Shown here: in pieces, positions 39,024-54,683 of the stretch
Layout of the letters: each line of letters begins with the position of its first letter
Position numbering within the stretch: the first letter of the stretch is position 1
The notes under the pieces: model-generated
What the model was told of the DNA's origin: nothing
Databases searched by the model: none
Seen by the model: the letters and a program-made list of their open reading frames with translations, nothing else
Origin: an uncultured Clostridia bacterium
GTDB taxonomy: Bacteria > Bacillota > Clostridia > UBA1381
Assembly: GCA_965151315.1 (NCBI GenBank)
Contig: CBCTZG010000002.1
Location: 25,817 to 89,816, forward strand
Direction of reading: 5' to 3'
DNA: 64,000 bases
Translations under genes and position numbers: made by a program

Positions 39024-39054
39024 GAAACCATGAAACAGAAAGGACATGATATGC

Positions 39055-40005
39055 ATGCGGGTAAAACAAGTAAAAGCGTCAAATGGACAGCTCCGGCGGG
39101 GAAAGCGGCTTTCGAAGGATGAGTGGCAGCTTTATTCCTTCTGCTTGATTCCGATTCTGCTGGTGTTTATTTTTTGCTATCTCCCGATGGGCGGTATTAT
39201 TATCGCGTTTAAGGACTATCGGTTTGATAAAGGAATTCTTGGCAGCGAGTGGGTAGGCTTTAAAAATTTTGAATTCTTCTTAAAATCCAATGAGTTTGTA
39301 AAACTGACCCGGAACACTTTATATTTAAACGCGCTGTTTATCGTCGTGGGAATCATCGCGGCTTTGGCTGTGGCGATACTTCTTTTTCAGCTTCGGAGCC
39401 GGACCGCGACGAAAGTATATCAAACCATGCTGATTACCCCGAATTTTATCTCCTGGGTTGTGGCTTCCTATATGGTTTACGCGCTTTTAAATCCATCCTA
39501 CGGTGCAATCAATATGCTTTTGCAGAAAATGGGCTTAGAGGGAGTAGACTGGTATAATACCCCGGCGGCATGGCCCGCGATCTTGACCATTGCCGGTGTT
39601 TGGAAAAATGTAGGAATGGACTGCGTAATCTACTATGCTGCACTGATGGGGATTGATCCTACCCTCTTTGAGGCGGCGGAAATCGATGGTGCGGGAACCT
39701 GGCAGAAAATCCGGCGGATTACTATCCCAAGTCTCGTGCCGTTGGTAACGATTTTAACAATTCTAAAGGTCGGCGGTATTTTTCGGGCGGATTTTGGTAT
39801 GTTCTACCAGCTGACTCGGGATGTGGGCGCTTTGTATGACATGACGGACGTCATCGACACCTATGTGTTCCGGACGATGCGTGTGCTGGGCGATATGGGA
39901 ATGGGCTCGGCTATCGGCCTTTTGCAGTCCGTCGTGGGTATTGTTATGGTGCTGGGGACAAACTGGCTGAGTAAGAAAATTGATCCCGATCTGGGCTTGT
40001 TTTAG
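39055..40005 (+). CDS. Sugar ABC transporter permease (LplB-like)
   Basis: Six TM pattern. The EAA loop is 'EAAEIDGAGTWQKIRRITIPSLVP'. The N-terminal basic region is typical of LplB-type permeases. Confidence 0.85.
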   Translation: MRVKQVKASNGQLRRGKRLSKDEWQLYSFCLIPILLVFIFCYLPMGGIIIAFKDYRFDKGILGSEWVGFKNFEFFLKSNEFVKLTRNTLYLNALFIVVGIIAALAVAILLFQLRSRTATKVYQTMLITPNFISWVVASYMVYALLNPSYGAINMLLQKMGLEGVDWYNTPAAWPAILTIAGVWKNVGMDCVIYYAALMGIDPTLFEAAEIDGAGTWQKIRRITIPSLVPLVTILTILKVGGIFRADFGMFYQLTRDVGALYDMTDVIDTYVFRTMRVLGDMGMGSAIGLLQSVVGIVMVLGTNWLSKKIDPDLGLF

Positions 40006-40014
40006 GAGGCAATT

Positions 40015-40905
40015 ATGGAAAAAACAAAAAAACATAGATTTCAGTTCGGCGTACATTTTGTGTTTATTCTGCTGTGCGCCTGCTGCGTACTGCCGTTTCT
40101 CCTGCTGGCGGCGATCTCTTTCTCCAGCGAGGCAGACGTGGCAAAATACGGCTACAGCCTGATCCCCAAAAACTTTGATTTGTCAGCGTACAAATATGTG
40201 TTCTCTAATCCGCAGGCAGTATTTAACGCCTATAAGGTGACGATTATCTTCTCGGTAGTAGGAACCGTTTTAAGTGTGCTGTTGATGGCAATGACGGCTT
40301 ATCCCTTGTCAAAGCGCTGGCTCCGGGGAAGGGGCAAAATCACCTTTTATTTATACTTTACCACCCTGTTCAGCGGCGGCATGGTACCTACTTACATACT
40401 GATTACCCAATACCTGCATTTGCAGAATACCATTTGGGTCTATATCCTGCCCGCCTTGATCAACCCCTGGTACATTTTTATGATCCGGACATTTTTCCAG
40501 GGGCTGCCGGAGGAAATCTTCGAGTCGGCGAAAATTGACGGGGCCAGCGAGTACAATATTTTTTTCCAGTTTGTATTGCCGCTGTCTAAGCCAGTTTTGG
40601 CAACTATTGCGCTGATGACATTTTTAGGCAAATGGAATGAGTGGTATACAGCGATGCTTTATATCAATGACGACAATCTGATCAGCCTGCAGTATCTGCT
40701 TCAGCGGATCATGCAGAATATCCAACTTTTGCAGAACGCGTCCACGGACTTAAACACAGCGTCGATGCTGTCTGCCTATGACATCCCGACAGAAACAGTT
40801 CGGATGGCCATGGCGGTTGTTGTGGCGGGACCGGCGCTTTTGATCTTCCCGTTTTTCCAGAAGTACTTTGTTAAGGGCCTGACTATCGGCTCTGTCAAGG
40901 GTTAA
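40015..40905 (+). CDS. Carbohydrate ABC transporter permease (LplC-like)
   Basis: The EAA loop is 'ESAKIDGASEYNIFFQFVLPLSKP'. There is a 9-nt gap to the upstream permease. Confidence 0.88.
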   Translation: MEKTKKHRFQFGVHFVFILLCACCVLPFLLLAAISFSSEADVAKYGYSLIPKNFDLSAYKYVFSNPQAVFNAYKVTIIFSVVGTVLSVLLMAMTAYPLSKRWLRGRGKITFYLYFTTLFSGGMVPTYILITQYLHLQNTIWVYILPALINPWYIFMIRTFFQGLPEEIFESAKIDGASEYNIFFQFVLPLSKPVLATIALMTFLGKWNEWYTAMLYINDDNLISLQYLLQRIMQNIQLLQNASTDLNTASMLSAYDIPTETVRMAMAVVVAGPALLIFPFFQKYFVKGLTIGSVKG

Positions 40906-40941
40906 TTGTCAATTTGTACAATATAAAAGGAGGAATTTTAT

Positions 40942-42411
40942 ATGAAAAAAAGAACACTCGCCGCGGCGCTAGCCATGGTTATGACCCTGGGATTGGCTTC
41001 CGGCTGCGGCAAAACCCAAGACACCGCGTCTGGCGGTGATGTTCCTACGTTGACCTGGTATGTGCCCGGCGATAAGCAGCCGGATATGGCCCTGGTTATG
41101 GAGGAGGCAAACAAAATTGTTGAACCGGCCATCGGCGCGAAAATTGATCTGCAGATGATTGACGCCGGCGCGTTCCAGGAAAAAATGACCATGATGATGG
41201 CATCCGGCGAAGTTTTTGACATGACATTTACCGGCGCTGGAAACGACTACATGACCGCAGTAGAAAAAGGCGGCCTTTTGGACATTACCGACATGATTGA
41301 TACGGAAGCGCCCAAGCTCCGGGAGGTTGTCCGGGATTATGCGTTTGAGGAAGTGACCGTTGACGGTCGGATTTATGGTGTGCCCAATATGCAGATCCTG
41401 GCAGGGAAGCGGAGTCTGTTTATTCCCAAAGATATCGCCGAGGAATATGGCCTGGAGGAACTGAACAAAATTAAGAAGATTGACGACGCGGAGCCATTTT
41501 TGGCCTGGGCTCATGAAAAATATCCGGATATGTATCCCCTGCAGATCGGCCAGGGCTTGACTAACTGGGATTTCGCAGAATATCTGGAGCTGGGTGTAAA
41601 CAACATGGGAATTTCCTATGAGGACCTGTTGGACGGCGACGGCAAGATGGAGGTTGTTTGGCTGCGGGATACAGATATTGACAAGCATGCACTGGAAAAA
41701 TTGCATGACTGGTATCAGAAAGGCTATATCCGCAAGGATGTGCTGAGCGTAACCGATGACTCCCTGGATGTAAAGGCCGGCAAATATATTGTAGAAACCG
41801 GGCTCTGGAAGCCAGGCGCAGAAGCGGAGTATTACAACAAGACTGGCCGGGAGTGCGTAATCATCCAGCTGGATTTTCCAACCCTGGTTAACGGCGCGGT
41901 TAACACGATGATTTCTGTCAGCCGGACCAGCAAAAACCCGGAAAAGTCCCTGCAGTTCATTGAACTGATTAACACCAATAAAGAGCTCTATAATCTGATT
42001 GCTTTCGGTATCGAGGGCAAGCATTATACGAAAAATGAAGAAGGTAAGATTGTGCTGAACCCGCAGTCCGGGTATTTCCAGAATGCTTCCTGGAAATTTG
42101 GCTGTGTATTTAACGCATTGGTTCAGGAAGGCCAGGACGACGACGTTTGGGAGCAGACGATCGCGTTGAATGACAGCGCCGTTGTTTCCCCGTTGTTAGG
42201 CTTTAAGCTGGACAGCAAACCAATCGCTACGGAGATTTCTGCGGTAACGTCCATTTCTTCACAGTATAAGGTTATGCAAACCGGCGCGGAAGACCCGGAC
42301 AGCTACTGGACCGAGTATCTGCAAAAGGTGGAAACAGCAGGGATCCGCAAAATCCAGGAGGAGACGCAGCGGCAGGTAGACGAGTATTTGAAAATGAAAA
42401 ACAACCAGTAA
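40942..42411 (+). CDS. Extracellular solute-binding lipoprotein (LplA-like, ~490 aa class)
   Basis: Lipobox 'MTLGLASGCG'. Its size and position after LplB/LplC-like permeases fit. The family call comes from context and general SBP pattern. Confidence 0.8.
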   Translation: MKKRTLAAALAMVMTLGLASGCGKTQDTASGGDVPTLTWYVPGDKQPDMALVMEEANKIVEPAIGAKIDLQMIDAGAFQEKMTMMMASGEVFDMTFTGAGNDYMTAVEKGGLLDITDMIDTEAPKLREVVRDYAFEEVTVDGRIYGVPNMQILAGKRSLFIPKDIAEEYGLEELNKIKKIDDAEPFLAWAHEKYPDMYPLQIGQGLTNWDFAEYLELGVNNMGISYEDLLDGDGKMEVVWLRDTDIDKHALEKLHDWYQKGYIRKDVLSVTDDSLDVKAGKYIVETGLWKPGAEAEYYNKTGRECVIIQLDFPTLVNGAVNTMISVSRTSKNPEKSLQFIELINTNKELYNLIAFGIEGKHYTKNEEGKIVLNPQSGYFQNASWKFGCVFNALVQEGQDDDVWEQTIALNDSAVVSPLLGFKLDSKPIATEISAVTSISSQYKVMQTGAEDPDSYWTEYLQKVETAGIRKIQEETQRQVDEYLKMKNNQ

Positions 42412-42455
42412 GAAAAACCATGCACTGGTAAAATAAATTGAGGAGGAACGAAACG

Positions 42456-43844
42456 ATGCGGAGCCTTCAAAAAACGTTGGTTAGTTTTCTTTTATCTGCG
42501 GCAATGCTGATGACGGCAGCAGTACCGGCTGTATTGGCCGCCGAGGGCGATGCGGCTGCGGCGTTGAACGGGGCCGGGGATATCGTTGAAGTGCAGGCTG
42601 TTTTAGAGCAGTATGGCGATGAATTGGATCTGGATTTGGAAACCTTAAGTAAGATTTCCAAAAAAGACGCTGTTTATCAGGCTATGCTGGACGCGGAGTT
42701 CGCCACTGATGCAGACGTGCAGAAAATGTTTGCACAAGCGCTGGGTGAACAGGCGGCAGTGATTAAAAATATTGCCGTGGCAGACGCAAGGGTAGATTGG
42801 AACAATAATATTTTTAATGATAACGGCGGAGAAAACGACTGGGCGCCATACTTTATGATCAACCGGCTGGTATACACGGAAACCGTTCCTATGACCGCGG
42901 AAGGCGGCCAGTGGGGGACGATAGATCTGAAGACAGGGGCAAAAACACAAGGGGCAGATCCCTGGCTGTTTGTTCCGGGCTGGGCCCAGAGATATAACCA
43001 GGCCTACTTTACCTTTGACCAGACAGCCACTTATGGCAAGGAACATATTGTAGGCGCGCAAGCCAATCTCCGCCGTGGATATGAGGAAAGCGCCCAGGAC
43101 GGCGTTGCCCGTTATTTGCTGCTGTATGATGATACTGAAACCAGAAACGCCATCGGATTTAGTAATGACACAAAACAGCAGGGGGATATGATCCGGGCGG
43201 ATGTGACAGAATTGGTTAAGAATAACGATACGTTTACGATTTACGCGGCAGGCGCTGTGGACGGTGTGACAGCCGGCGGCAGTGCGCTGACAACACCGAA
43301 GGACGAAGGTCTGAAAGACAACGCGATGTTTTTAACGATATCTTATGACAAGCTGGCGTTTGCGAACGAGGTGGGCAAAGCCAGCAACGCGGAAGCTGCC
43401 CAGAGCTTGGTTGAAAATTACAGAACGATTCTGGGCATTCCGGAGGACGCGGATACAATGGCGTACGCGGTTGCGATGATGGGAACGGAGTTTACTTCTG
43501 CCGCGCAGCTGGAAAGCGTTTTCGAGCGGGCAGCGCTGCGGGAGGTTATGATTGCTGATGTAATGCCGCAGCCGGGACAAATCTCCAGAGGTTCAGTAAC
43601 AATCAGGAATTTGACGGCGGAGGTAAAGGATATTCAGGTCGTTGTAGCTGGATATAATGAAAACGGCCAGATGGTGGATTCCGTATTTTTGACGCTTGCG
43701 AATCCACAGCTGAACGGGTATACATCTGTCAGCGGCCTATATAGAATGTCCGCGGATAATATTGTGGAAATTAAAGCATTCTTATGGGATAGCTTAGAGT
43801 CCCTCCAGCCGCTGGACATGCCGGGCGTTTATCGTCAGCAATAA
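42456..43844 (+). CDS. Secreted protein of unknown function (ORF A, 462 aa): helical modules, beta-rich middle, and a C-terminal 'FLWD' module
   Basis: GAGGAGG lies 8 nt upstream of the ATG at 42456. Signal peptide 'MRSLQKTLVSFLLSAAMLMTAAVPAVLA'. I recognise no catalytic motif. Confidence 0.75.
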   Translation: MRSLQKTLVSFLLSAAMLMTAAVPAVLAAEGDAAAALNGAGDIVEVQAVLEQYGDELDLDLETLSKISKKDAVYQAMLDAEFATDADVQKMFAQALGEQAAVIKNIAVADARVDWNNNIFNDNGGENDWAPYFMINRLVYTETVPMTAEGGQWGTIDLKTGAKTQGADPWLFVPGWAQRYNQAYFTFDQTATYGKEHIVGAQANLRRGYEESAQDGVARYLLLYDDTETRNAIGFSNDTKQQGDMIRADVTELVKNNDTFTIYAAGAVDGVTAGGSALTTPKDEGLKDNAMFLTISYDKLAFANEVGKASNAEAAQSLVENYRTILGIPEDADTMAYAVAMMGTEFTSAAQLESVFERAALREVMIADVMPQPGQISRGSVTIRNLTAEVKDIQVVVAGYNENGQMVDSVFLTLANPQLNGYTSVSGLYRMSADNIVEIKAFLWDSLESLQPLDMPGVYRQQ

Positions 43845-43886
43845 TCGGATGTTTTGCGGCAAGCCGGGTTTATTAGGAGGATGAGC

Positions 43887-46800
43887 ATGAAGATGCAATA
43901 CAAAAAAATTACAGCATTGCTTTTGTCGGCTGCTATGCTGACAGCATGCCTGCCGGGAATCGCTTTCGGCCAGCAGACAGATCCTGTTCCGCTGGATATT
44001 AAAGCAGAAAATCAAATATCCGATGATTCTGTGCAGGACGGTAAAACGGAGTTACCGCTGACAGAAGAGGAGGACTGTGGGAAACCAGGGGGCCAGGCGC
44101 CTGCCCCTGCTGAATCTCCAGTACCGCCGGAAGAGCCGGAAGCAGAGCCAACACAGTCTGCAAAACCGGAATTAGAATCGGAACCGATTAGAAAAGTAAA
44201 ACCTATGCATGAGCAGACAGAGGCAGAGGTATACTCCGCCGATCAGATTGAGATCCAGCATCCAATGGCTGGAGATTTGATCCTGACGAGGGATGGAAAC
44301 GAGGACAATTTTAACGGCGCGGGTTCGCAGACCGGTACGCTGAAGCTGTTAACCAAGTTTGCGAAAACTGAAGATATTAACGTGGATCCGAAATATATTG
44401 TATCTGTCCAATATCATTTGACGCTGGATATGTGTGACGCTATGTTTGATCCGCAAACCTGGCATTTTTACATGACAGACGGAAACTGGCAGGAGTTCCA
44501 GGCTACATATGACTCCCTGGGAGACGCGGTCACGGATACGTCAAGAGAACTTCTTACGGAGGCGGCTTTTCTGCCGCTGTTTGACAACACCTTTGACATT
44601 ACCGATGGTTATAAGACATTGATTGATAAACAAGACGGTGATTTTGGTATCCGGGTAGACTTGGAACAATACGAAGCGGTTTTTAAGAACAATTCCAGTA
44701 CTGCGGACAATTATCTGACCTATACAATCGACCGCGGCGCAATTTGGGAAGATATAGAAAACGCGGCCGATTTAGATATGCTGGACAGCATGATCCTGAA
44801 AAACGGAGCGGCTGTTGGAATCAATACAGGGCTTTACCGGGCGGTTGCCGACCGGTCGGAAATGCTTGCGGAGATTGCCGGTCTGGAGAAGGTGACAGCG
44901 GAAACAGTAAATGAAGTGATTGCGGCAGCGGCCGATCAGGTACTGACGGCCCCGGTAATAATCCCAAATGACGGGAATATCTACCGGTATGAGACCGCGC
45001 CCCAACAAAACGCATCTGCTAAGCTGATCCGGCAAAGCGGCCAGAATATGGCCACAGAAAGTACCACAGCTTCCCGGTTTGTAGTGGCGTTTGATTTGGG
45101 GGATACACCGGCTGCCTCTGCGGCCGATGTTCAGTTTTCTATCCTGCGGGCCGCCAGCGGCGCAGAAGAAGGAACAATTCGAAACTTGACGGTTTCCGTG
45201 GCAGACTCTGCGGGAGAAAATGCGGATCCGCAGGATACACCGTTTTATTTGGACTTTGAACAGGCTCCGGTTGGCCTAGCCTCTCAGTCTAAAACGGAAA
45301 ATCCGTATGTAGAAATTACAGGGATGATTGATCCAGCAGCGGACAAGCTGTACGTTTCCCTTTTGGGAATTGATGACAGTGACCGATTATCCAATCAGGC
45401 TGTTCTGGCCGTTCGATACAATTTAACAGATATTTTTGCGATGATTGCCAAGGCATCTGTTGTAGAAACAATCAGCCTATTAACCCAATATGGCAGTGTG
45501 CTGGGCCTGCCAGAGGAAGACTTGACCGGAGATCGGCTTTTGAAGATTGCGTTAGGCGTATATGGCCGAACCATTGATAGTACAGACACGTTTTTGGCAA
45601 TGGCAGAAAATGCTGCAAATAATATGGGAAAAGCAGATATTTTAGGGGCCCTGAACCAAACGGCGGAAGAAGCTGCGTATGGAGAAGTGATATTGGCTTA
45701 CAGCGGGCTTTTAGAGGTACAAAATACGATGATTGCAAATCTGCCAATGGAGTATCAGAAGCAGGCCATTGCTGAAATTTTCCGTGGCGGCGAGGATTAT
45801 CATTCAGTTTCCGAACTGATCGCGGCGGTCCGCAAAGCAGCTGCCAAGCAATATAAGCTGCTTTTATCTGGCCTGGATGGTATTGATTATGCGGCGACTA
45901 AGGCATATCTCCAGGAGTGTGGAGAGGCTTTGGGGATTTCAGCGGAAGATCTCAGCACAAATATTGACAAGCTGACAATGGCGTACCTGATTGGAAGACC
46001 GATAACAGATATTTTAGAGTTTCAGGCCATTTACGCTGATTATGAAACCTATGCAAGCAATAATATTGTTGGTCTTTTAAACCGCAGTCAGAATGTGGAA
46101 GAGTTTGACGCCTTGCTTCACCAGTATCAGGAAGCGCTAGGCTTAGATTTACGGGTATATGACACCTTTGAAAATAAGGAAGGGATATATCTTTCCATGC
46201 GGGGCGCCGCAGATAATCCAGCGGATTTTGCAGTGCGGTTTGCGGAGGAATTGCAAAAATACCTGGCCCAGCCGCAGACAACCTATGCAATTGAAGAATC
46301 CTGGATTAAAACGGACAGAGACGATCCAAACTATGGTAACTGGAATGAAGAGTGGATGGGCAGAAAGGATGACGCAAGCCATCTGCTGAAATATGATTTA
46401 TCCGGGATTGCAATTGATCCACAGAAGCTGGTGAGCGCGACAGTCACGCTTTCGATTCCAGTTAGAAACGAAACGGCGGATGTTGCGGATACGACCTTTT
46501 ATCTGTACACACTGCGCAATGACTGGAAGGAGTCGACAGCAACGTATAAGCTGCTGGAAGAGCAGGGCTTCTTCGCAGAGCAGAAAATTGCGGGACAAGC
46601 GTATGAGGCCATGCTCCACGGCGGCGACAAAATTGTGATTGATATTACGGATTACATCATAGAGCAGGCACAGCAGGGTCAAATTGGGCAGTTGTCCTTC
46701 CAGTTTGCCGCTGTTAATCCAAACGGCGGCCTGATCATCACCCGCAAGGGTGACAGTGTGACATACGCGCCTATGGATTTGGTCTTTGCTGAGGGCGTTA

Positions 46801-47456
46801 GCTCAACGGTTAACTATACGCCGGCAGGAGGCAGCCAGAATGTGCCAGTTGATACCCAGGAAATTCTTATCCAATTTCCAAAGGCTGTGGATCCTGTCAC
46901 CATGACGGACAAGGCGGTAACCGTACAGGAAAATGGAACGGCGGTGTCCAACTGGACACTGCAGAGTGTAAACAGTACAACATATAAGATTGTATTTGAC
47001 TCCAGACTGGCATATGACACCACGTATACAGTAAGCCTGGCGAACAGTATTCAATATGCGGGCGATAGCGGGACTTACGTAATGAATGCATTATCGTTTA
47101 CTACAGAAAAGCAGCCGCTGGTATTTGGCGGAATGCAGGTTTATTCTGATGGCAAGCAGATTCAGCAGCTGTCGGAGCGGACCAGTGATACAGTAACAGT
47201 ATCTGCTCGAGTGGAGAATAACGGAGAGGAAACTCAGCCGGCGGCAATTACTTTGGCGCTGTATGCGGAGGAAAACGGAGTATGGCAGATGATTGCCGCG
47301 AAAGCTGTATCTGATGTAATTGATCTGGATGGCTATCTCCTGTGCGAAACAGATTTTGATATTCCTGATGCCCCGGGAATAACATATTCGATTGCATGCC
47401 ACGTGTGGGATTCCTATGAATCTATGAGTAGCATGTATTACGCGCGGATGCAGTAA
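43887..47456 (+). CDS. Giant secreted protein of unknown function (ORF B, ~1,190 aa): P/E linker, beta-sandwich modules, helical repeat modules, SbsA-type Ig domain, and a C-terminal 'VWD' module
   Basis: AGGAGG at 43875-43880. Signal peptide 'MKMQYKKITALLLSAAMLTACLPGIAFG'. The start is ambiguous (43881, 43887 or 43893). Confidence 0.75.
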   Translation: MKMQYKKITALLLSAAMLTACLPGIAFGQQTDPVPLDIKAENQISDDSVQDGKTELPLTEEEDCGKPGGQAPAPAESPVPPEEPEAEPTQSAKPELESEPIRKVKPMHEQTEAEVYSADQIEIQHPMAGDLILTRDGNEDNFNGAGSQTGTLKLLTKFAKTEDINVDPKYIVSVQYHLTLDMCDAMFDPQTWHFYMTDGNWQEFQATYDSLGDAVTDTSRELLTEAAFLPLFDNTFDITDGYKTLIDKQDGDFGIRVDLEQYEAVFKNNSSTADNYLTYTIDRGAIWEDIENAADLDMLDSMILKNGAAVGINTGLYRAVADRSEMLAEIAGLEKVTAETVNEVIAAAADQVLTAPVIIPNDGNIYRYETAPQQNASAKLIRQSGQNMATESTTASRFVVAFDLGDTPAASAADVQFSILRAASGAEEGTIRNLTVSVADSAGENADPQDTPFYLDFEQAPVGLASQSKTENPYVEITGMIDPAADKLYVSLLGIDDSDRLSNQAVLAVRYNLTDIFAMIAKASVVETISLLTQYGSVLGLPEEDLTGDRLLKIALGVYGRTIDSTDTFLAMAENAANNMGKADILGALNQTAEEAAYGEVILAYSGLLEVQNTMIANLPMEYQKQAIAEIFRGGEDYHSVSELIAAVRKAAAKQYKLLLSGLDGIDYAATKAYLQECGEALGISAEDLSTNIDKLTMAYLIGRPITDILEFQAIYADYETYASNNIVGLLNRSQNVEEFDALLHQYQEALGLDLRVYDTFENKEGIYLSMRGAADNPADFAVRFAEELQKYLAQPQTTYAIEESWIKTDRDDPNYGNWNEEWMGRKDDASHLLKYDLSGIAIDPQKLVSATVTLSIPVRNETADVADTTFYLYTLRNDWKESTATYKLLEEQGFFAEQKIAGQAYEAMLHGGDKIVIDITDYIIEQAQQGQIGQLSFQFAAVNPNGGLIITRKGDSVTYAPMDLVFAEGVSSTVNYTPAGGSQNVPVDTQEILIQFPKAVDPVTMTDKAVTVQENGTAVSNWTLQSVNSTTYKIVFDSRLAYDTTYTVSLANSIQYAGDSGTYVMNALSFTTEKQPLVFGGMQVYSDGKQIQQLSERTSDTVTVSARVENNGEETQPAAITLALYAEENGVWQMIAAKAVSDVIDLDGYLLCETDFDIPDAPGITYSIACHVWDSYESMSSMYYARMQ

Positions 47457-47474
47457 TTTGAAAGGATTTTAAAG

Positions 47475-50400
47475 ATGAAAGCAGGTACCGCAGTAAAACT
47501 TGGACTACTGATTACAATTTTATTATTGCTTACCCCGGTAATCCATGGTTTTGCCGCTGTTGTCAATTCTGTGGACATACAGGGAGAAAAGCTGACGGTA
47601 CAGGGCAACCTTTCCCAGTATACCCCGGCGCAGATTGTGGGCGTATATATTTTAAAGGAAGGAAAAGCGCCTGCGGATATCGCTGGCGCGGCTCAGCCGG
47701 GAGATGTATTTGACCAGATTGGTATGGCGGCCGTAGACGATAACGGGAAATATACTTGTCAGCTGATATGCAGCGATACGTCGGAGAAGGGCAGTTTATA
47801 TGTAAAAAGCGGTGCGGAAGAAATTCTACTGCCGGTGGAAAATTATAAAAGTCCTGGCCGGACACTGTATGTCGCGCCGGATGGAAACGATCTGGCGCCC
47901 GGAACCAAGGACGAGCCTCTTGCCACATTGACCGGTGCCCGGGATCTAATCCGGGCCTGGCGGGCGGAGCGGGGCGAACTGCTAGAGGCGGTAACGGTAT
48001 ACATTATGCCCGGAGAATACCGCATGACGGAAACTGCCGTGTTTACCCGGGAAGACAGCGGAACGGCGGAATGCCCAATTACTTATCGGGCGTATGCGCC
48101 AGGAACGGTAACATTTAAGGGATCGGTGAAGCTGCCGGCGGAAGATTTCCGGCAGGTTACAGATCGGGAAACTTTACAGCGGCTGCCGATACAGGCGGCG
48201 GGCCGTGTATATCAAATGGATCTGGGAAACTACGGTATTACGCCGGACCAGGTGCAATTCAAGGATATCTGGGGCCGGGACGCCTTTTCACAGGCGGTAT
48301 CTCCGGCTGTTCCAGGCCTTTATTTAAACGGAAAACGGCAGGATATTGCCCGGTGGCCCAATGTGGGCTATGCGGATTTTAGTCTTCCCGATGGCTCCAG
48401 CGCTATTTTAGATCCAGGCGAGGAACAGGGCCGGGGAGCGGTATTCTATTTCCGGGAACCCAATCTGCAGCGGTGGATAACCGCTAAGGATATGTTTATT
48501 GATGGTTATCTGGCTGTGCAGTATGCGGGTGCGTATCGGCGGGTCAAAGCGATTGACCCGGAAGCAGAGACCATAGCCCTGGTAGGCGGCGTGATCGCCG
48601 GGCCGGAACGGCGGTGGACGGCAGTGAATCTTTTGGAGGAGCTGGATATGCCGGGTGAGTTTTATATTGACCGGGATAACATGCGGCTTTACTATTATCC
48701 TGCCTATGACCTGACCGAAACGGATGTATTAGAATATGCGGCCATGCAGACGCCGCTGATCCAGCTGGAGAATGTATCCTATATGCAGCTGCAGGATCTG
48801 GACTTTGCGCAGGTCTATGCCGCGGGTATCACAGGCAGCGGTATTGATCATATCCAGGTTTCCGACTGTGAAATTTCCTTTACGGCAGGACATGGAATTT
48901 GGTTTTCCGACGCAAGAAATACAGAGGTTACCGGCTGTACGGTTCATAATACTGGTGGGAACGGCATTGTAGTGGACACAAATACAACTCAGCAGGAGTT
49001 ATTTTCCCTGACGGCTTGCGGGAACCGGATAATCAATAACCATGTATATAACGTCAGCGATCAGGTACGGACAATGGGCTCTGGTATTAGCGGCAACGGC
49101 GTTGGACTTCTGATTCAGAACAACCTGGTGCATCTGAGTCCTAATATGGGCGCTAGCGGCGGCGGCGCGGAAAGCGAGGTCAGCTATAATGAGCTGTATA
49201 ACCTGATCCGGGATACTGCCGACGCCGGCGGCGTTTATATCGGCAGGACGCTGATCTCCTATGGGAACCGGTACGCGTTCAATTATATTCACGATATGGG
49301 GATCGAGGGATTTTTGGAAAACGAACATACCTCCGGAATTTTCTGGGATGATTTCCTAAGCGGCCAGACAGCGGAGAATAATATTATTGTCAATGATTAC
49401 CCGGGAACGGCTTATGGTATCAATATCAACGGCGGCCGGGATCTGCGGGTGAACGGGAACATTTTCGTCGGAATGGATTATGCCGTACGCAATACGGACC
49501 GGTCTAATCAGCCGGTGGATCAGGTGAACTTTATGCCGGAGATTGTAGAGGATTTAAAATGGGTTGCCGCGGCAGACTCCGAATATACCCGGAAATATCC
49601 GCAGATGGTCCAGACCTATCGAGAAATTCAGGAAGATGGAAAATTCAATCCAAAGAATATGGATTTTTCCGGAAACATCGTTTTTAACTGCCGGCAGGCT
49701 GCGGCTGAAAACGGCGGCGTATTTACAAACGGCAGAATCGCCGGCGAATTTTCGGATACAGTTAACATTGATAACTTTGTGACAAAGAATTCATCTATTT
49801 TTGTTGATCCAAAACAGGGAGATTACCGCCTGACGGAAGCCGGAAAAGCGGCGGCAGGATTGCAGGATTTCGTGTTGGACGAAGATTTTGATCTGGACAC
49901 AATTGGTTTCCAGGGAGTTGTTCCTTTAGGGGATGGTTTTCGGAAAACATATCCCCAAAATGGCGCGGCAGTCGGCGGTGGGATAACCCTGGCCTGGGAG
50001 CAGGCGCTGTTTGCGGATGAATACGTCTATACTGTATCGGAAAATCCGGATTTATCCGATCCGATATATCAGGGGATAACAATTTACCGGCATGCAGAGC
50101 TTTTCGGATTGGAGCCGGGCAAGACATATTATTGGAATGTTACGGCAAGGCATACTTCCCGGAAATTTGCCGGGGCGTGGGAAAGCGGTCCGGTTTATAG
50201 CTTTCGGACAACCACATGTCCCGTTCAGGTGCAGGATATGCAGGCAGAAGCTTCTGCCGATGCGCTGACGGTCACGATGCGGACATATAACGGAAGCGCA
50301 GAAGCGGCCGGAACCTTGCTGTTGGCAGGCTACCAGCCGGATGGAAGCCTGGCCGGGGTCACCGCAGCAAAAATCACAGTCCCTGCCGGCGCGGCGGCTA

Positions 50401-50510
50401 TACACGCTGTGGCGCGGGCTGTGCCGGAAGCTGTGGACTATACGGCGTTCCTATGGGATGGAATAGATACTATGCAGCCCCTTGGGGACTGTAAAATTTA
50501 TGTGAGGTAG
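47475..50510 (+). CDS. Secreted right-handed parallel beta-helix protein (ORF C, 1,011 aa); candidate polysaccharide hydrolase or lyase
   Basis: Signal peptide, then an Ig-like N-module, then 'LYVAPDGNDLAPGTKDEPLATL' and many short G/N-rich coils ('NTGGNGIVVD', 'NRIINNHVYN', 'LLIQNNLVH'). It continues with an Fn3-like 'YYWNVTAR' domain and a C-terminal 'FLWD' module. Confidence 0.75.
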   Translation: MKAGTAVKLGLLITILLLLTPVIHGFAAVVNSVDIQGEKLTVQGNLSQYTPAQIVGVYILKEGKAPADIAGAAQPGDVFDQIGMAAVDDNGKYTCQLICSDTSEKGSLYVKSGAEEILLPVENYKSPGRTLYVAPDGNDLAPGTKDEPLATLTGARDLIRAWRAERGELLEAVTVYIMPGEYRMTETAVFTREDSGTAECPITYRAYAPGTVTFKGSVKLPAEDFRQVTDRETLQRLPIQAAGRVYQMDLGNYGITPDQVQFKDIWGRDAFSQAVSPAVPGLYLNGKRQDIARWPNVGYADFSLPDGSSAILDPGEEQGRGAVFYFREPNLQRWITAKDMFIDGYLAVQYAGAYRRVKAIDPEAETIALVGGVIAGPERRWTAVNLLEELDMPGEFYIDRDNMRLYYYPAYDLTETDVLEYAAMQTPLIQLENVSYMQLQDLDFAQVYAAGITGSGIDHIQVSDCEISFTAGHGIWFSDARNTEVTGCTVHNTGGNGIVVDTNTTQQELFSLTACGNRIINNHVYNVSDQVRTMGSGISGNGVGLLIQNNLVHLSPNMGASGGGAESEVSYNELYNLIRDTADAGGVYIGRTLISYGNRYAFNYIHDMGIEGFLENEHTSGIFWDDFLSGQTAENNIIVNDYPGTAYGININGGRDLRVNGNIFVGMDYAVRNTDRSNQPVDQVNFMPEIVEDLKWVAAADSEYTRKYPQMVQTYREIQEDGKFNPKNMDFSGNIVFNCRQAAAENGGVFTNGRIAGEFSDTVNIDNFVTKNSSIFVDPKQGDYRLTEAGKAAAGLQDFVLDEDFDLDTIGFQGVVPLGDGFRKTYPQNGAAVGGGITLAWEQALFADEYVYTVSENPDLSDPIYQGITIYRHAELFGLEPGKTYYWNVTARHTSRKFAGAWESGPVYSFRTTTCPVQVQDMQAEASADALTVTMRTYNGSAEAAGTLLLAGYQPDGSLAGVTAAKITVPAGAAAIHAVARAVPEAVDYTAFLWDGIDTMQPLGDCKIYVR

Positions 50511-50519
50511 GATGATTCG

Positions 50520-53500
50520 ATGAAGAAAGTGCTGGTATTGATTCTAATATACGGCATGGTGCTGGGCGGGCTTCCGGCATATGCGGCAGACAGCGGGACA
50601 GACAACACAACTGTCCTGCATGTAAGCCCCAATGGCAGCGATACCAATCCGGGAACGGAAGACAGGCCGCTGGCGACCTTAGACGCCGCCCGCCGGATCG
50701 TCCGGGGTATGGCAAAGAAAGAGCCTATTGAGGTTCTGTTCCATGCGGGGGAATACCGGGTGAGCCAGACAGTATGGTTTGATTCCGGAGATGCCGGGAC
50801 AGAACAGGCGCCGATCACATATAAAAGCGCCGGGGACGGCGAAGTCATTTTTAACGGTGCAAAAATATTGGATATTTCGGCTTTCGAACCAGTTACGGAC
50901 CAAAAAATTCTGAAACGGCTGCCGGCTTCGGCAGTCGGACGGGTAGGACAGATGGATTTAGGTGCCCAGGGAATTACCCAGGATCAAATTATTTCGATCC
51001 ATACCCAGTGGAATCAGAATCCATACGAACAGTTCTGTACGCCGCAGATTCGGAACATCTACGTAAACGGCAGGGAACAGCAGCTGGCCCGGTGGCCCAA
51101 TAAGAATTTTTTATCCATCAGTAATGTAGTGTCGGACAATACGTTTGTCTACACGGAAACCAATCCCTCTAACTGGACGGAGGCAAAAGATGTATTTATT
51201 GCCGGATATATGTTCTCGGAGTGGGAAGGCGGCTGGGCGCAGATTGAGCGGATTGATCCGGCGAATAGAACAATTACCTTAAAAAACAGTTCCGTGTTGG
51301 CGAACCATCGCTGGTCAGCGGTTAATTTGCTGGAGGAGATGGATATTCCTGGGGAATGGTACGCGGATCGGGAAACGATGACTCTCTACTATTATCCGGA
51401 AAAGCTTTTAGAGCCGGGACGGGACGTTATGGAGCTGCCGGTTCTGCGGGACGCGTTTATCGGCATGACCCAGTGCCCCTATGTGAATTTTGAGGGGTTG
51501 ACCTTTGAGCGGGGCTACTGCGACGGTATTCGCAGCTATAATTCGGATCATGTGATCGTCCGCAACTGTGTTATGCGGGATCTGGCCGGAGCTGGCATTT
51601 ACAGTGATAATGGACGATACGCGCTGTTTGAGGATAATACCATTTATAATACAGGGATGCACAATATTTATTATAACTTTACCGATAGCCAGTCAGACAA
51701 GGACAACATTGTTCACACCGGTACAGTGATCCGCAACAATCACTGTTATAACGGTGCAAATCATGGTATTGGTATGAGCGCGGCCAATATTTCGTTCTCT
51801 GGGATCGGCACAGTGGTAGAAAACAATACCGTTCACCGGGGGATCAACAGCGGTATTATTGGCACAGGGCCGGAGTGCGCTGTCCGCTATAATGAGATTT
51901 ATAACATGGTTCGGGAATCTGCTGACGCCGGCGCTTATTACATGGGCCGGACTTGGACAAACTACGGGACAGATTTCTCCTATAATTACATCCACGACTT
52001 AGGTGACCGGGAATTTGACGCGGCTAACCTGGTGGACTGTGTATTCTGGGACGACGCGGCCAGTGGTCAGACGGCTAGATACAATATTATGTGGCCAAAC
52101 TCAAAAACAAGAACCTATGGCGTTATCAGCGGCGGCGGCCGGGATAATGATATTTCTTATAATATTATCGTAGATTCAGACCAGTCCATCGGTATGCAGG
52201 ACAGAACTACATATCTGACGGATGTAAAGACGGGATATTTCGACGGTGTGGCCTACAAGGGTCTGGAAGCTGCTGTGGCCACGTCGACGCCCTACAACCG
52301 GAAGTATCCGCAGATGTTAAAGACTTATCAGGAATTAGAGCAAACCGGGATATTTTATCCCAATAACAATACATTGATGCACAATGTGATCATCAATTCT
52401 GCGGACATCAACTACGCCAATGCCGTAAAGGATTCGCCCACCACCAAAGCGGAAGGGAATTATGTGGGTACCGGATATGACATTTTTGTGGATCCGGAGA
52501 ATCAGGATTTCCGGATTAAGAAGTCGGCTAAGGCAGAGCTTGGATTAGACGACGGTGTTTTGGACGAGGACTTTGACATTACCCAAATTGGCATGCAGCG
52601 GGAAATGATAGATGTAGACCGGAGCTTTGCCAAGACCTATCCCCGCAACGGCGATTCCGGCCTGAACGCTGCGAATGTAACCCTTTCCTGGCAGCAGTCA
52701 GCCTTTGCCGACGAATATGTGTATGAGGTTGCTACCGATCCAGACTTTAACAATATTGTCCGGACAGGAACAACCATCTATACCAACACGGAAATAGAAA
52801 ATTTGGAAAAAGACACCAATTATTACTGGCGTGTGAAGGCAAAAACGATTTCGAGGGCATTTCCAAGCGAAACGGAATCAGAGGACGTTCCATTCCTGTT
52901 TAAAACAGCGGCGTACGACATTTTAGTAACGGATAATTTAAAGTCTGCCGTGGAGAAAGCGGAACTCTTTGCGGAATCCATTACAGAGGGCGAAGAACTG
53001 GGACAGTATAAGCCGGGGACAAAGGACGCGCTGAACACGGCAATTGCGTCCGCGGACGCAATTTTAAAAATGACCAGCGGTCAGCAGGCAACCATCAACA
53101 ATGCAGAATTAGACTTAAACGCGGCGCTGGAGCAGGCCAAATCCTCCATTAACGTAGGATATATGGGAACGATTGACACATCACCGGAGTCAGAATGGGT
53201 AACACAGCAGCCGGATCATATCCAAATTACCCGGGAGGACGGCGGCGTAACAGTGACCCGGGCTTCTACAGAGGGCATGGCGGCTTCCGGTGTGGAATAC
53301 CCCAGCTATGGCATTTATCAATTCCAGATCAAGGCAAGCCTGGGAGACGGCTGGTGCGCTGTGGGCATGCGGCACTCCAACATCAATAGCCATCAGATTT
53401 ATTATTCTGAAGATAATAAACTGAATAACTACTTTATCATAATCAAAAAGGATGCCTTCGAGCTGCAAAGCCGAAACTCTGATAATGTAGGCGCGACCGT

Positions 53501-54683
53501 TATGGTATCTGCCCCGAACAATGGTATATTTAAAGAAAACGAGTGGAACGACATTGAGATGGGCATGATTCCGGCAGGCAAAGGGAATCTTTGTTTAGTC
53601 AAGATCAACGGGCAGGCGGTATTCAGTTATTTAGATGAAGCCAATCCAGTCCGGGCAGAGGGGAGAATTTCCTTGCAGCCGGCGGACGGCTCCTGGATTT
53701 CCATTCGGTCGGCAGAGAACGCAAAGACCGGACCATATACGCCGCCGGAAGAACTTCTTCAAAGTGATGAGGGCTTACCCATTTACTATACAACTGAATC
53801 TCCGGAGTATACTGAATCCGGTACATGGGCAGTAGATGATCAAAAAGGTTATCAGGATATGGCATCACGTTCTACGAAGGAGACCGGTGCTTATGCCCAG
53901 TTCAGCCTAAAGCCGGCCGATGAGATCAGAACCTATCGCGTTTCGTATTATCATGTCCCCGGCGAGGATAATGATCCGGCAGCGTCCGTTTATTTCCGGA
54001 ACCTGTATACCAGCTATACCCGGAAATTGGATCTCACCAAGGGAGAAGCCGGCTGGATAGAGCTGGGGGTTTTTAACTTTGCCAATGAAGCGGCAAAGGG
54101 TGTTATGGATATCCAATTTACTGCCGGCGGACAGGGAACCATGCGGATATCTGCACTAAAGATTGAGCAAGTAGAAGAATCTATGCGGGAATTTTCCGAA
54201 GTGTTTACGCTGCACGCGAAAAACGCGTTGCTTTTAAAGGCCGGTGACAATCGGGCGTTTAAAGATATCAGCGAATATACGCTGGACACGGCACCAACGA
54301 TTTTAAACGGACGGACGCTGATCCCGCTTCGGTTTGTATCAGAAGCCTTTGACACGCAGGTGGATTGGCAGCCGGATACCCGGGCGGCAACAATTCAGAC
54401 GAGTGATAAGCAGATTATATTTCAGGCGGACAGCCGAACATATACAGATGGTGGCAGCACCATGACCTTAGATCAACCGCCGGTGATCCAAGAAGACCGG
54501 ATGATGGTTCCTCTGCGGGCCTTGGCGGAAGCTTTGGGTAACCAGGTGATGTGGGATGACCGGTATCAGCTGATTTTAATTGCGAAAGAGTTCCAGTTTG
54601 AGGAACAGAACAAAGAAAAGATATTCGACGTCTGCAATGCGGCATTTATGCAGACGGAAAATGGAGGGGCAAATGAAACGTAA
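50520..54683 (+). CDS. Secreted right-handed parallel beta-helix protein (ORF D, 1,387 aa), a paralog of ORF C with a long multi-domain tail ending in a Cu-amine-oxidase-N-like domain
   Basis: Signal peptide 'MKKVLVLILIYGMVLGGLPAYA', then 'LHVSPNGSDTNPGTEDRPLATL'. It is colinear with ORF C through the Fn3-like domain. The tail ends 'ILNGRTLIPLRFVSEAF...MMVPLRALAEALG'. Confidence 0.75.
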   Translation: MKKVLVLILIYGMVLGGLPAYAADSGTDNTTVLHVSPNGSDTNPGTEDRPLATLDAARRIVRGMAKKEPIEVLFHAGEYRVSQTVWFDSGDAGTEQAPITYKSAGDGEVIFNGAKILDISAFEPVTDQKILKRLPASAVGRVGQMDLGAQGITQDQIISIHTQWNQNPYEQFCTPQIRNIYVNGREQQLARWPNKNFLSISNVVSDNTFVYTETNPSNWTEAKDVFIAGYMFSEWEGGWAQIERIDPANRTITLKNSSVLANHRWSAVNLLEEMDIPGEWYADRETMTLYYYPEKLLEPGRDVMELPVLRDAFIGMTQCPYVNFEGLTFERGYCDGIRSYNSDHVIVRNCVMRDLAGAGIYSDNGRYALFEDNTIYNTGMHNIYYNFTDSQSDKDNIVHTGTVIRNNHCYNGANHGIGMSAANISFSGIGTVVENNTVHRGINSGIIGTGPECAVRYNEIYNMVRESADAGAYYMGRTWTNYGTDFSYNYIHDLGDREFDAANLVDCVFWDDAASGQTARYNIMWPNSKTRTYGVISGGGRDNDISYNIIVDSDQSIGMQDRTTYLTDVKTGYFDGVAYKGLEAAVATSTPYNRKYPQMLKTYQELEQTGIFYPNNNTLMHNVIINSADINYANAVKDSPTTKAEGNYVGTGYDIFVDPENQDFRIKKSAKAELGLDDGVLDEDFDITQIGMQREMIDVDRSFAKTYPRNGDSGLNAANVTLSWQQSAFADEYVYEVATDPDFNNIVRTGTTIYTNTEIENLEKDTNYYWRVKAKTISRAFPSETESEDVPFLFKTAAYDILVTDNLKSAVEKAELFAESITEGEELGQYKPGTKDALNTAIASADAILKMTSGQQATINNAELDLNAALEQAKSSINVGYMGTIDTSPESEWVTQQPDHIQITREDGGVTVTRASTEGMAASGVEYPSYGIYQFQIKASLGDGWCAVGMRHSNINSHQIYYSEDNKLNNYFIIIKKDAFELQSRNSDNVGATVMVSAPNNGIFKENEWNDIEMGMIPAGKGNLCLVKINGQAVFSYLDEANPVRAEGRISLQPADGSWISIRSAENAKTGPYTPPEELLQSDEGLPIYYTTESPEYTESGTWAVDDQKGYQDMASRSTKETGAYAQFSLKPADEIRTYRVSYYHVPGEDNDPAASVYFRNLYTSYTRKLDLTKGEAGWIELGVFNFANEAAKGVMDIQFTAGGQGTMRISALKIEQVEESMREFSEVFTLHAKNALLLKAGDNRAFKDISEYTLDTAPTILNGRTLIPLRFVSEAFDTQVDWQPDTRAATIQTSDKQIIFQADSRTYTDGGSTMTLDQPPVIQEDRMMVPLRALAEALGNQVMWDDRYQLILIAKEFQFEEQNKEKIFDVCNAAFMQTENGGANET

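What the first reader, a model, noticed from the sequence alone, without database searches (positions are those of the whole stretch)
43540..50510. A private C-terminal ~100-aa module ending in (F/V)(L/V)WD...M..(L/M) on the three proteins that lack any anchor
ORF A (nt 43540-43841), ORF B (47112-47453) and ORF C (50215-50507) all end with the same pattern.
- Each has a strand like 'VTIRN' / 'VTVSARVENN' / 'LTVTMRTYN'.
- Next comes 'VVVAGYNENGQM' / 'LALYAEENGVWQM' / 'LLLAGYQPDGSL'.
- Each terminates in 'IKAFLWDSLESLQPL' / 'IACHVWDSYESMSSM' / 'YTAFLWDGIDTMQPL' within 4-9 residues of the stop.
- ORF D ends in a Cu-amine-oxidase-N-like domain and lacks this module. The two SLH proteins also lack it.

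Inference (speculative): a shared terminal beta-sandwich restricted to the non-anchored members is what a docking or sorting module would look like. It could bind the SLH proteins ORF E/F or the cell wall. It could instead be just a common carbohydrate-binding module.
Basis: partly seen in the sequence, partly recalled or inferred. Interest (0 to 1): 0.6.

Follow-up and report, generated by a model that had tools for sequence, protein, structure and literature searches.

The report
Expanded C-terminal Ig-like tag domain
The shared tail of three secreted proteins is one copy each of an undescribed ~90-residue Ig-like domain that ends 46 of the 65 secreted proteins carrying it in this gut Clostridia genome, almost never coincides with the SLH wall anchor, and sits beside SLH-anchored surface-protein genes, so it may be a new way of holding enzymes at the cell surface.

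Summary
ORFs A, B and C each end in a ~90-aa module with the motif A-x-Y-D..G-x-L … K-x-F-x-W-D…P-L. An iterated HMM finds one copy in 65 ORFs of this 2.93-Mb genome. In 46 of them the module ends 3-17 aa before the stop codon.

- **Fold and family:** AlphaFold gives a six-strand Ig-like beta-sandwich (pLDDT 84). No Pfam, NCBIfam or PDB family covers it. It is not dockerin, a T9SS CTD, or R. albus CBM37.
- **Carriers:** They are Sec-secreted CAZymes, esterases, LRR proteins and beta-helix proteins.
- **Relation to SLH:** The genome has 95 SLH ORFs. Only 4 ORFs carry both domains, and none of the 46 terminal-module proteins has SLH.
- **Neighbourhood:** Module genes cluster with SLH genes, 35% directly adjacent against 6% background. 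The main partner is a recurring gene pair: a C-terminal-SLH protein followed by an ORF F-like protein with N-terminal SLH (19 paralogs).
- **Distribution:** Among 250 sampled Clostridia genomes, 73 have the module. All 73 have SLH and 66 have F-like genes.

Best reading (inferred, about 45%): a non-covalent surface-retention or docking module, functionally like CBM37 or dockerin. Rivals are a glycan-binding CBM or a structural Ig cap. I rate it a new variant of a known kind.

The parts
43551..43835 (+). Module copy at the C-terminus of ORF A (aa 372-466 of 468). The HMM envelope is aa 386-458, nt 43593-43811.
   Evidence: AF2 model of this copy: pLDDT 83.8, six beta-strands.
47160..47453 (+). 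Module copy at the C-terminus of ORF B (aa 1103-1200 of 1200). This is the most divergent of the three and has a longer beta4-beta5 insertion.
   Evidence: E=7.8e-11 with the genome profile.
50226..50504 (+). Module copy at the C-terminus of ORF C (aa 918-1010 of 1011).
   Evidence: E=2.2e-15.
42438..43844 (+). ORF A: a 468-aa Sec-secreted protein with no Pfam domain, ending in the module.
43854..47456 (+). ORF B: a 1200-aa secreted protein with CBM96-like and Big_5 domains, then the module.
47475..50510 (+). ORF C: a 1011-aa secreted right-handed beta-helix (GH141-like) protein with an Fn3-like domain, then the module.
50520..54683 (+). ORF D: a paralog of C that lacks the module and ends in a Cu_amine_oxidN1 domain.
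   Evidence: PF07833, E=3e-30. Absent from the module hit list.
54978..56390 (+). ORF E: the 's' protein of the cassette, with three SLH repeats at its C-terminus. It sits directly upstream of F.
56404..59334 (+). ORF F: a member of the 19-paralog 'F-like' family, with N-terminal SLH plus about 750 aa of beta-rich sequence of unknown fold.
35900..42411 (.). Locus context: histidine kinase and AraC-type response regulator (minus strand), then two ABC permeases and a solute-binding protein (plus strand). This is a Gram-positive PUL-like arrangement upstream of ORFs A-F.

Best explanation
**What it is**
The three tails are copies of a large, so far undescribed Ig-like beta-sandwich domain family. 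The module is about 90 aa, with the motif ..N.t….lAvYD..GrL……vKaFvWDs…m.Pl. In this uncultured gut Clostridia bacterium it is attached, one copy per protein and usually as the very last domain, to 65 different Sec-secreted proteins. These include glycoside hydrolases, beta-helix enzymes, esterases, CBM-bearing proteins and LRR proteins.

**What it most likely does**
It acts as an alternative to the SLH wall anchor. After secretion, the module most likely holds its passenger non-covalently at the cell surface. It would do this by docking either onto SLH-anchored surface proteins encoded next door, or onto a wall-associated glycan. The candidate protein partners are the ORF E-type 's' proteins and the ORF F-like family. 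On this reading the enzymes of each polysaccharide-utilisation locus stay next to the cell and its ABC importer. That is the job dockerin-cohesin does in cellulosomes and CBM37 does in Ruminococcus albus.

**Shown versus inferred**
- Shown: family membership, fold, copy number, position in the protein, secretion signals, exclusivity with SLH, gene neighbourhood and phyletic co-distribution.
- Inferred: binding itself, and the identity of the partner.
For: **Family and position**
- An iterated HMM finds 65 ORFs with one copy each. 46 of 65 copies end 3-17 aa before the stop codon.
- In public data, 12,655 clusters at 50% identity match. 115 of the top 148 have a copy within 25 aa of the C-terminus.
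- The profile is specific. It finds nothing in 177 of 250 Clostridia genomes, and nothing in two cellulosome producers rich in Ig and CBM domains.

**Fold**
- The AF2 model has pLDDT 84 and six strands.
- The best Foldseek PDB matches are Ig-like domains of GH66 and GH2 enzymes, TM 0.66-0.70.

**Passengers**
- 61 of 65 carriers have a Sec signal peptide. The other four are cut by contig ends or have uncertain starts.
- Passenger domains are diverse: CBM6, CBM4_9, beta-helix, GH42, GH10, GDSL, LRR_5 and others.

**Alternative to other anchors**
- The genome has 95 SLH ORFs but only 4 with both domains. None of the 46 terminal-module proteins has SLH.
- Among about 105 putative secreted proteins of 800 aa or more: 31 have the module only, 45 SLH only, 4 both and 25 neither. 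Odds ratio 0.07, p=3e-7.
- The genome has no dockerin and only two sortases.

**Link to SLH partners**
- 35% of module genes have an SLH gene as a direct neighbour, against 6% background.
- 16 of 19 F-like genes have a module gene within five genes, against 13% background.
- 15 of 19 F-like genes are directly preceded on the same strand by a gene for a C-terminal-SLH protein.
- Three of those upstream proteins are natural fusions of the form X - module - body homologous to small s proteins - SLH.
- The same module-(s)-F order is visible in other families, on G016:C119, G040:C8, G045:C15 and C25, G086:C3, G092:C98 and G209:C8.

**Phyletic pattern in 250 Clostridia genomes**
- 73 have the module. 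All 73 have SLH, against a base rate of 160 of 250.
- 66 of the 73 have F-like genes, odds ratio 74. First-look candidate counts correlate with Spearman 0.68.
Against: - No binding was observed or modelled.
- Paralogous copies are very divergent, with mean column identity 19%. That is low for modules recognised by one common receptor.
- The conserved residues may be mainly structural. I could not map them onto the model.
- 19 of 65 copies are internal. Six of these sit just before a GDSL or SASA esterase domain. Top database hits often have 2-3 tandem copies. Both patterns also fit a plain spacer or a CBM.
- 26 of 65 module genes have no SLH gene within three genes.
- One module-rich genome, G081, shows no F-like gene. 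Twenty genomes have F-like genes without the module.
- Co-distribution and adjacency are not corrected for phylogeny. They could reflect shared ancestry and common membership of glycan-utilisation loci.
- The module is acidic, median pI 4.5, like the rest of the proteins. There is therefore no charge signature of a wall-polymer binder.
Confidence: 0.45

Rival explanations
1. The module is a substrate-targeting carbohydrate-binding module. It would be a new CBM family with an Ig-like fold that binds dietary or host glycans. It would raise enzyme concentration on the substrate and have nothing to do with the cell surface.
For: - Most passengers are CAZymes or carry other CBMs.
- CBMs are commonly terminal, can be tandem and can sit between domains.
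- The fold resembles beta-sandwich accessory domains of GH2 and GH66 enzymes.
- The loci look like Gram-positive PULs.
Against: - The same module sits on 65 proteins with very different predicted specificities, including BspA-type LRR proteins and proteins with no catalytic domain.
- Many carriers already have classical CBMs.
- Strong mutual exclusion with SLH is not expected for a substrate-binding CBM. SLH-anchored enzymes usually carry CBMs too.
- Confinement to SLH-positive genomes and tracking of the F-like family are unexplained by this reading.
- No match to any CBM family in Pfam or the PDB.
Confidence: 0.25
2. The module is a purely structural Ig-like terminal cap or spacer that has spread by domain shuffling in a lineage with a huge secreted proteome. 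It would stabilise or space the passenger and have no ligand.
For: - The fold is a generic Ig-like sandwich with only weak links to CARDB and FxLYD-type domains.
- Sequence conservation is low.
- Copies occur internally and in tandem.
- Its pI is the same as the rest of the protein.
Against: - In this genome there is exactly one copy per protein, and 71% of copies lie within 17 aa of the stop. Spacer Ig domains such as Big_5 in the same proteins occur as internal tandem arrays.
- A cap would not be expected to avoid SLH proteins or to co-vary with one particular SLH protein family.
Confidence: 0.2
3. The module is a cleavable C-terminal secretion or sorting signal recognised by a dedicated export or attachment machine, analogous to the T9SS C-terminal domain or to sortase and exosortase signals.
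For: - It has a similar size, a beta-sandwich fold, a terminal position and high copy number, like T9SS CTDs.
- Two of 65 copies give very weak hits to TIGR04183 (E of 0.13 or worse).
Against: - All carriers have ordinary Sec signal peptides.
- The genome has no Omp85/BamA, so it is probably monoderm.
- 19 of 65 copies are internal, and tandem copies exist elsewhere.
- The tails have no LPXTG motif, no transmembrane helix and no basic end.
- Only two sortases are present.
Confidence: 0.05

Closest known systems
CBM37 of Ruminococcus albus (Xu et al. 2004; Ezer et al. 2008; summarised in PMC4081043)
   Same: - It is about 100 aa, with 51-102 copies per genome.
- It is usually C-terminal and sometimes tandem.
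- It sits on many different GH, CE and PL enzymes and on non-catalytic proteins.
- It very rarely occurs together with the other tethering module of that organism (dockerin there, SLH here).
- It is reported to attach enzymes to the bacterial surface as well as to polysaccharides.
   Different: - There is no sequence relationship. The module profile scores -2.3 bits on the CBM37 tail of R. albus 7 xylanase WP_013483737.
- CBM37 is reported as unique to R. albus. This module was found in 73 of 250 sampled Clostridia genomes, and not in a Ruminococcus MAG.
- Binding has been demonstrated for CBM37 and is untested here.
Type I/II dockerin-cohesin with SLH-anchored scaffoldins (for example the C. 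thermocellum SdbA/OlpB type; from established knowledge)
   Same: - A small, mostly C-terminal module on dozens of secreted enzymes.
- Neighbouring genes encode proteins with a C-terminal triple SLH after a linker. That is the architecture of anchoring scaffoldins, seen here in ORF E and other 's' proteins.
   Different: - The module is a beta-sandwich, not a Ca-binding duplicated F-hand.
- There is no Dockerin_1 hit anywhere in the genome.
- Only 2-3 weak cohesin-like hits exist, and none lies next to module genes.
- No repeated receptor module has been identified.
T9SS C-terminal domain (TIGR04183, Bacteroidota)
   Same: - An 80-100-aa Ig-like beta-sandwich at the extreme C-terminus of many secreted proteins.
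- Very divergent in sequence.
   Different: - There is no significant HMM match.
- The organism lacks Omp85.
- Internal and tandem copies exist.
CARDB (PF07705), FxLYD domain (NF038353) and the GH2/GH66 Ig-like accessory domains
   Same: - The same general fold, with a similar first half (…v.N.G/t…; (F/A)xLYD-like strand-turn).
- Weak hits: FxLYD in 7 of 65 copies (best E=3e-4), CARDB in 2 of 65.
- Foldseek TM 0.66-0.70 to 3vmp, 5t98 and 2vo5.
   Different: - All hits fall below family thresholds.
- The defining second half (K-x-F-x-W-D…P-L plus the last strand) is not part of those families.
- Those domains have no comparable terminal bias or genome-wide expansion.

Membership tests
Ig-like / E-set beta-sandwich fold | Two-sheet beta-sandwich of about 90 aa that superposes on known Ig-like domains | tested here: met
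   AF2 with a 65-sequence alignment gives pLDDT 83.8, pTM 0.72 and six strands. Foldseek PDB gives TM 0.66-0.70 to GH66 and GH2 Ig-like domains, but E is only 8e-3 to 9e-2.
CBM37 | Sequence homology to R. albus CBM37 modules | tested here: not met
   The A4 profile against R. albus 7 GH11-CBM22-GH10-CBM37 xylanase, with all filters off, scores -2.3 bits on the tail.
CBM37 | High-copy, mostly C-terminal module on diverse secreted CAZymes, rarely combined with the organism's other tethering module | tested here: met
   65 copies, 46 of them terminal, and only 4 of 65 together with SLH.
CBM37 | Binds polysaccharides and the bacterial cell surface | not testable with these tools
   This needs recombinant protein binding assays.
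Dockerin (PF00404) | Duplicated Ca-binding F-hand motif that matches Dockerin_1 | tested here: not met
   No Dockerin_1 match in ORFs A-C, in the 65 module segments, or anywhere in the genome.
T9SS C-terminal domain (TIGR04183) | HMM match, strict C-terminal position, and a diderm host with T9SS | tested here: not met
   Only 2 of 65 copies hit, at E of 0.13 or worse. 19 of 65 copies are internal. No Omp85 is present in the genome.
Sortase (LPXTG) sorting signal | LPXTG-like motif, then a hydrophobic helix, then a basic tail at the C-terminus | tested here: not met
   The tails after the module are 3-17 aa, with no motif and no hydrophobic helix.
CARDB (PF07705) / FxLYD (NF038353) | Score above the curated family threshold | tested here: inconclusive
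   CARDB hits 2 of 65 copies (best E=0.034). FxLYD hits 7 of 65 (best E=3.3e-4). Most copies do not match. This is probably a distant superfamily relationship only.
SLH (PF00395) | SLH repeats within the module-bearing protein | tested here: not met
   None in ORFs A-C. Genome-wide, 4 of 65 proteins have both, always with an internal module and a C-terminal SLH.

The most novel reading that the evidence does not exclude
The module is the enzyme-borne half of a cohesin/dockerin-independent display system. In each glycan-utilisation cassette, secreted enzymes ending in the module dock onto the SLH-anchored 's' protein and/or the ORF F-like protein encoded beside them. Together they would form locus-specific, S-layer-tethered enzyme complexes in abundant uncultured gut Clostridia.
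Probability: 0.3. Interest if true: 0.8.

Novelty: new variant of a known kind. Interest (0 to 1): 0.6.

Why it matters
Uncultured Clostridia of this type are common in human and animal guts. Relatives here come from Hadza, Nepali, ruminant and rabbit samples. How they organise fibre degradation is unknown.

A domain that ends roughly a fifth of the large secreted proteins, replaces SLH, and travels with a new family of SLH proteins would define a third way of keeping enzymes cell-associated in Gram-positive bacteria, besides cellulosomes and CBM37.

Even if it proves to be a CBM or a cap, the family deserves a database model. It has more than 12,000 clusters at 50% identity and no Pfam or NCBIfam entry. 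It would annotate tens of thousands of "hypothetical" tails and help delimit secreted CAZymes in metagenomes.

Tried and rejected
- **Pfam and NCBIfam:** Scans of full proteins and of the 65 module segments found no covering family.
- **PDB by sequence profile:** The best hit is E=0.075, to an Ig-like domain of a cell-surface protein (8c8k). I treat this as not significant.
- **CBM37 identity:** Rejected by direct scoring against an R. albus 7 xylanase fetched from plasmid pRUMAL02.
- **The search for related loci with the domain alignment:** It failed because no conserved 7-10-column stretch exists. I used the single genome-contig scan on IleRS to name relatives instead.
- **The search for homologous proteins on the ORF A tail:** It returned only the protein itself.
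- **Cluster look-up of top database hits:** It gave only unnamed or "hypothetical" proteins.
- **Ortholog comparison for selective constraint:** Not possible. The best match to ORF C in same-genus or sister genomes is only 31-35% identical, because the beta-helix family is itself hugely expanded.
- **Fold of ORF F:** Only its SLH part matches solved structures, so no cohesin-like receptor could be recognised.
- **Basic-charge wall-binding idea:** Rejected, because the modules have a median pI of 4.5.
- **Literature searches:** Searches for the motif or domain, FxLYD, and Gram-positive PUL/SLH systems found no description of this module.

Full report
**1. The observation**

The region holds three co-directional ORFs: A (42438-43844, 468 aa), B (43854-47456, 1200 aa) and C (47475-50510, 1011 aa). 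They are followed by D (50520-54683), E (54978-56390) and F (56404-59334).

- The quoted strings are present.
- The FLWD/HVWD…P(L) motif ends 8-10 residues before each stop.
- BLASTP of the A and C tails gives E=1e-6. B against A or C gives only 2e-3 to 3e-3.
- Pfam finds nothing on the three tails.
- D ends in Cu_amine_oxidN1. E has three C-terminal SLH repeats. F has N-terminal SLH.

So the resemblance is real and the description of D, E and F is right.

**2. The module is not private**

I laid out the whole 2.93-Mb assembly (158 contigs, 97.7% complete) and iterated an HMM seeded with the three tails. The search converged on 65 ORFs, each with exactly one copy.

- 46 of 65 copies end 3-17 aa before the stop codon. 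The other 19 are internal.
- A, B and C are not each other's nearest relatives.
- The consensus over about 90 residues is ..N.t……v.lAvYD..GrL……………vKaFvWDs…m.Pl, followed by a last short strand.
- 62 of 65 copies keep the A-x-Y-turn motif, and 48 of 65 keep the x-W-polar motif.

**3. Fold and family**

- AlphaFold2 with the 65-sequence alignment gives a six-strand beta-sandwich, pLDDT 83.8 and pTM 0.72.
- Foldseek against the PDB returns only generic Ig-like domains. These are the GH66 dextranase N-domain, GH2 Ig-like domains, PDE6D and IL-17RA, at TM 0.55-0.70 and E of 8e-3 or worse.
- A profile search of PDB sequences has no significant hit.
- None of the 65 segments reaches a Pfam or NCBIfam threshold. 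The most frequent weak hits are FxLYD (7 of 65, best E=3e-4) and CARDB (2 of 65).
- The profile finds 12,655 clusters (50% identity) among 1.84 billion representatives at E of 1e-3 or better.
- Among the top 148 of those, 115 have a copy within 25 aa of the C-terminus, and 60 carry two or three copies, often tandem.
- The sampled members are unnamed or "hypothetical".

**4. Who has it**

- IleRS from the window is 84% identical to an uncultured Clostridia MAG from Hadza stool. It is 65-71% identical to Candidatus Aphodoplasma and Congzhengia.
- In the organism's own family, all 18 other genomes searched carry the module. Fifteen have 12 to 93 matches, one small genome has 3, and the two same-genus genomes, both incomplete, have 27 and 28.
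- The Hadza MAG has 66 matches. Congzhengia has 4 and Ca. Aphodoplasma has 1.
- None was found in Zongyangia hominis, a Ruminococcus MAG, Ruminiclostridium sufflavum, Acetivibrio mesophilus, a Mahella MAG or Ca. Alloruminococcus.
- In an even sample of 250 Clostridia genomes that are at least 90% complete, 73 have it. The hits concentrate in about a dozen families.

**5. What it is attached to**

- 61 of 65 carriers have a typical Sec signal peptide. The other four are cut by contig ends or have uncertain starts.
- Passenger domains include CBM6, CBM4_9, CBM35, beta-helix/GH141-like, GH42, GH10, GDSL and SASA esterases, BspA-type LRR, Laminin_G_3, Big_5 and F5/8-C. Several carriers have no known domain.
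- In six internal cases the module is followed by an esterase domain: within 12-30 aa by a GDSL domain in five, and about 100 aa downstream by a SASA domain in the sixth. It looks as if an esterase was appended to a protein that once ended with the module.
- The tails after the module have no LPXTG motif, no hydrophobic helix and no basic end.
- The module is acidic, median pI 4.5.

**6. Relation to anchors**

- The genome encodes 95 ORFs with SLH repeats (46 C-terminal, 38 N-terminal).
- It has one CsaB-type pyruvyl transferase, two sortases, no dockerin, no Omp85, and only 2-3 weak cohesin-like hits.
- Only four ORFs have both the module and SLH. In all four the module is internal and SLH is terminal. 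None of the 46 terminal-module proteins has SLH.
- I used a heuristic set of putative secreted, non-membrane proteins of 800 aa or more. In that set 31 have the module only, 45 have SLH only, 4 have both and 25 have neither. The odds ratio is 0.07, p=3e-7.

**7. Neighbourhood**

- 23 of 65 module genes have an SLH gene as direct neighbour, against 6.3% for any gene. 39 of 65 have one within three genes, against 13.9%.
- ORF F belongs to a family of 19 paralogs, with N-terminal SLH plus about 750 aa. One further protein clusters with them through its non-SLH region.
- 16 of the 19 have a module gene within five genes, against 13% background.
- 15 of the 19 are directly preceded on the same strand by a gene for a protein with a C-terminal triple SLH. 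Stop and start often overlap. ORF E and F are one such pair.
- Three of these upstream proteins are fusions of the form X - module - body - SLH. The body is homologous (phmmer 1e-7 to 7e-19) to the pre-SLH part of small 's' proteins. This is a Rosetta-stone-type hint that module-ending proteins and 's' proteins act together.
- The module-(s)-F order recurs in genomes of other families, as listed in the evidence field.
- ORF F's non-SLH part has no sequence or fold relative in the PDB. The AF2 model has mean pLDDT 69, and only the SLH part matches Sap and SpaA.

**8. Phyletic pattern**

In the same 250-genome sample:

| Feature | Genomes |
|---|---|
| Module | 73 |
| F-like | 86 |
| Both module and F-like | 66 |
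| Module only | 7 |
| F-like only | 20 |
| Neither | 157 |
| SLH | 160 |

- The odds ratio for module against F-like is 74. First-look candidate counts correlate with Spearman 0.68.
- All 73 module-positive genomes are SLH-positive.
- These statistics are not corrected for phylogeny.
- There are exceptions. G081 is rich in modules and has no F-like hit, and one whole family has F-like genes without the module.

**9. Interpretation**

The combination of features is the signature of an address or tethering module rather than a catalytic accessory or a spacer:

- one copy per protein;
- a terminal position;
- many unrelated secreted passengers;
- avoidance of the organism's main anchor;
- restriction to SLH-type cell surfaces;
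- clustering with SLH-protein genes and co-variation with one SLH protein family.

The nearest functional precedent is CBM37 of R. albus, with 51-102 copies, mostly C-terminal, very rarely combined with dockerin, and reported to attach enzymes to the cell surface (PMC4081043). The two are not homologous. I therefore favour a non-covalent surface-retention or docking role, at roughly 45%. The partner is unknown. It could be an 's' or F-like protein, or a wall glycan.

A substrate-binding CBM (about 25%) and a ligand-less structural cap (about 20%) remain serious rivals. The reasons are that the copies are very divergent, that internal and tandem copies exist, and that nothing here demonstrates binding. 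A T9SS-like or sortase-like sorting signal is unlikely (about 5%).

**10. Novelty**

The kind of thing is known: a high-copy C-terminal non-catalytic module on secreted enzymes. The domain family itself is undescribed in Pfam, NCBIfam, the PDB and the searchable literature. Its association with a second undescribed family of SLH proteins in recurring cassettes is new. I rate it a new variant of a known kind.

Noticed in passing
window 56404-59334 (ORF F) and 18 paralogs elsewhere in the genome (loci L147-L165): This is a 19-member paralog family: N-terminal triple SLH plus about 750 aa of beta-rich sequence with no sequence or fold relative in the PDB. It is present in 86 of 250 sampled Clostridia genomes, with up to about 57 candidates per genome. 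The architecture recalls S-layer proteins such as Sap and EA1, but the copy number and PUL-like context suggest locus-specific surface components.
   Followed up: partly
window 54978-59334 (ORFs E and F); G000 contigs C1, C11, C21, C32, C38, C47, C59, C69, C75: In 15 of 19 cases the F-like gene is directly preceded on the same strand by a gene for a protein with a C-terminal triple SLH. Stop and start often overlap, so this is a conserved two-gene unit with opposite SLH topology.
   Followed up: partly
L058 (G000:C69:1877-5365), L064 (C10:22272-25361), L065 (C18:34863-38228): Three proteins are fusions of the form X - module - about 300-aa body homologous to small 's' proteins (C59_4704, C3_17495) - triple SLH. 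All three sit directly upstream of an F-like gene.
   Followed up: partly
L048, L052, L054, L056, L057 (GDSL) and L051 (SASA): In six proteins the module is followed by an esterase domain: a GDSL domain within 12-30 aa in five, and a SASA domain about 100 aa downstream in the sixth. This suggests repeated C-terminal addition of an esterase cassette to module-ending proteins.
   Followed up: no
whole genome G000: The SLH surface proteome is extraordinarily large: 95 SLH-bearing ORFs in 2.93 Mb, with one CsaB-like pyruvyl transferase. There is no dockerin and no Omp85.
   Followed up: partly
G000:C4:33139-33486 and C31:28668-28994: These cohesin-like domains score above the Pfam cut-off, in a genome with no dockerin at all. 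The C4 ORF (1052 aa) also carries SLH repeats.
   Followed up: no
window 47475-54683 (ORFs C and D); sister MAG G275: The ORF C/D beta-helix (GH141-like) family is hugely expanded, with 58 matches in the sister MAG. The best match is only 31-35% identical, so no true ortholog of ORF C was found even in close relatives.
   Followed up: partly
C-terminal tails of the 46 terminal-module proteins: Roughly a third of the tails have a Cys 1-5 residues after the conserved P-L (for example PLC, PLCE, PLAPC). Its meaning is unknown.
   Followed up: no
window 35900-42411 and 59478-62701: The locus context is a histidine kinase with an AraC-type response regulator, an ABC sugar importer (two permeases and an SBP with DUF3502), a 442-aa ORF with no Pfam hit, and a GH3. 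ORFs A-F therefore sit inside a Gram-positive PUL-like locus.
   Followed up: partly
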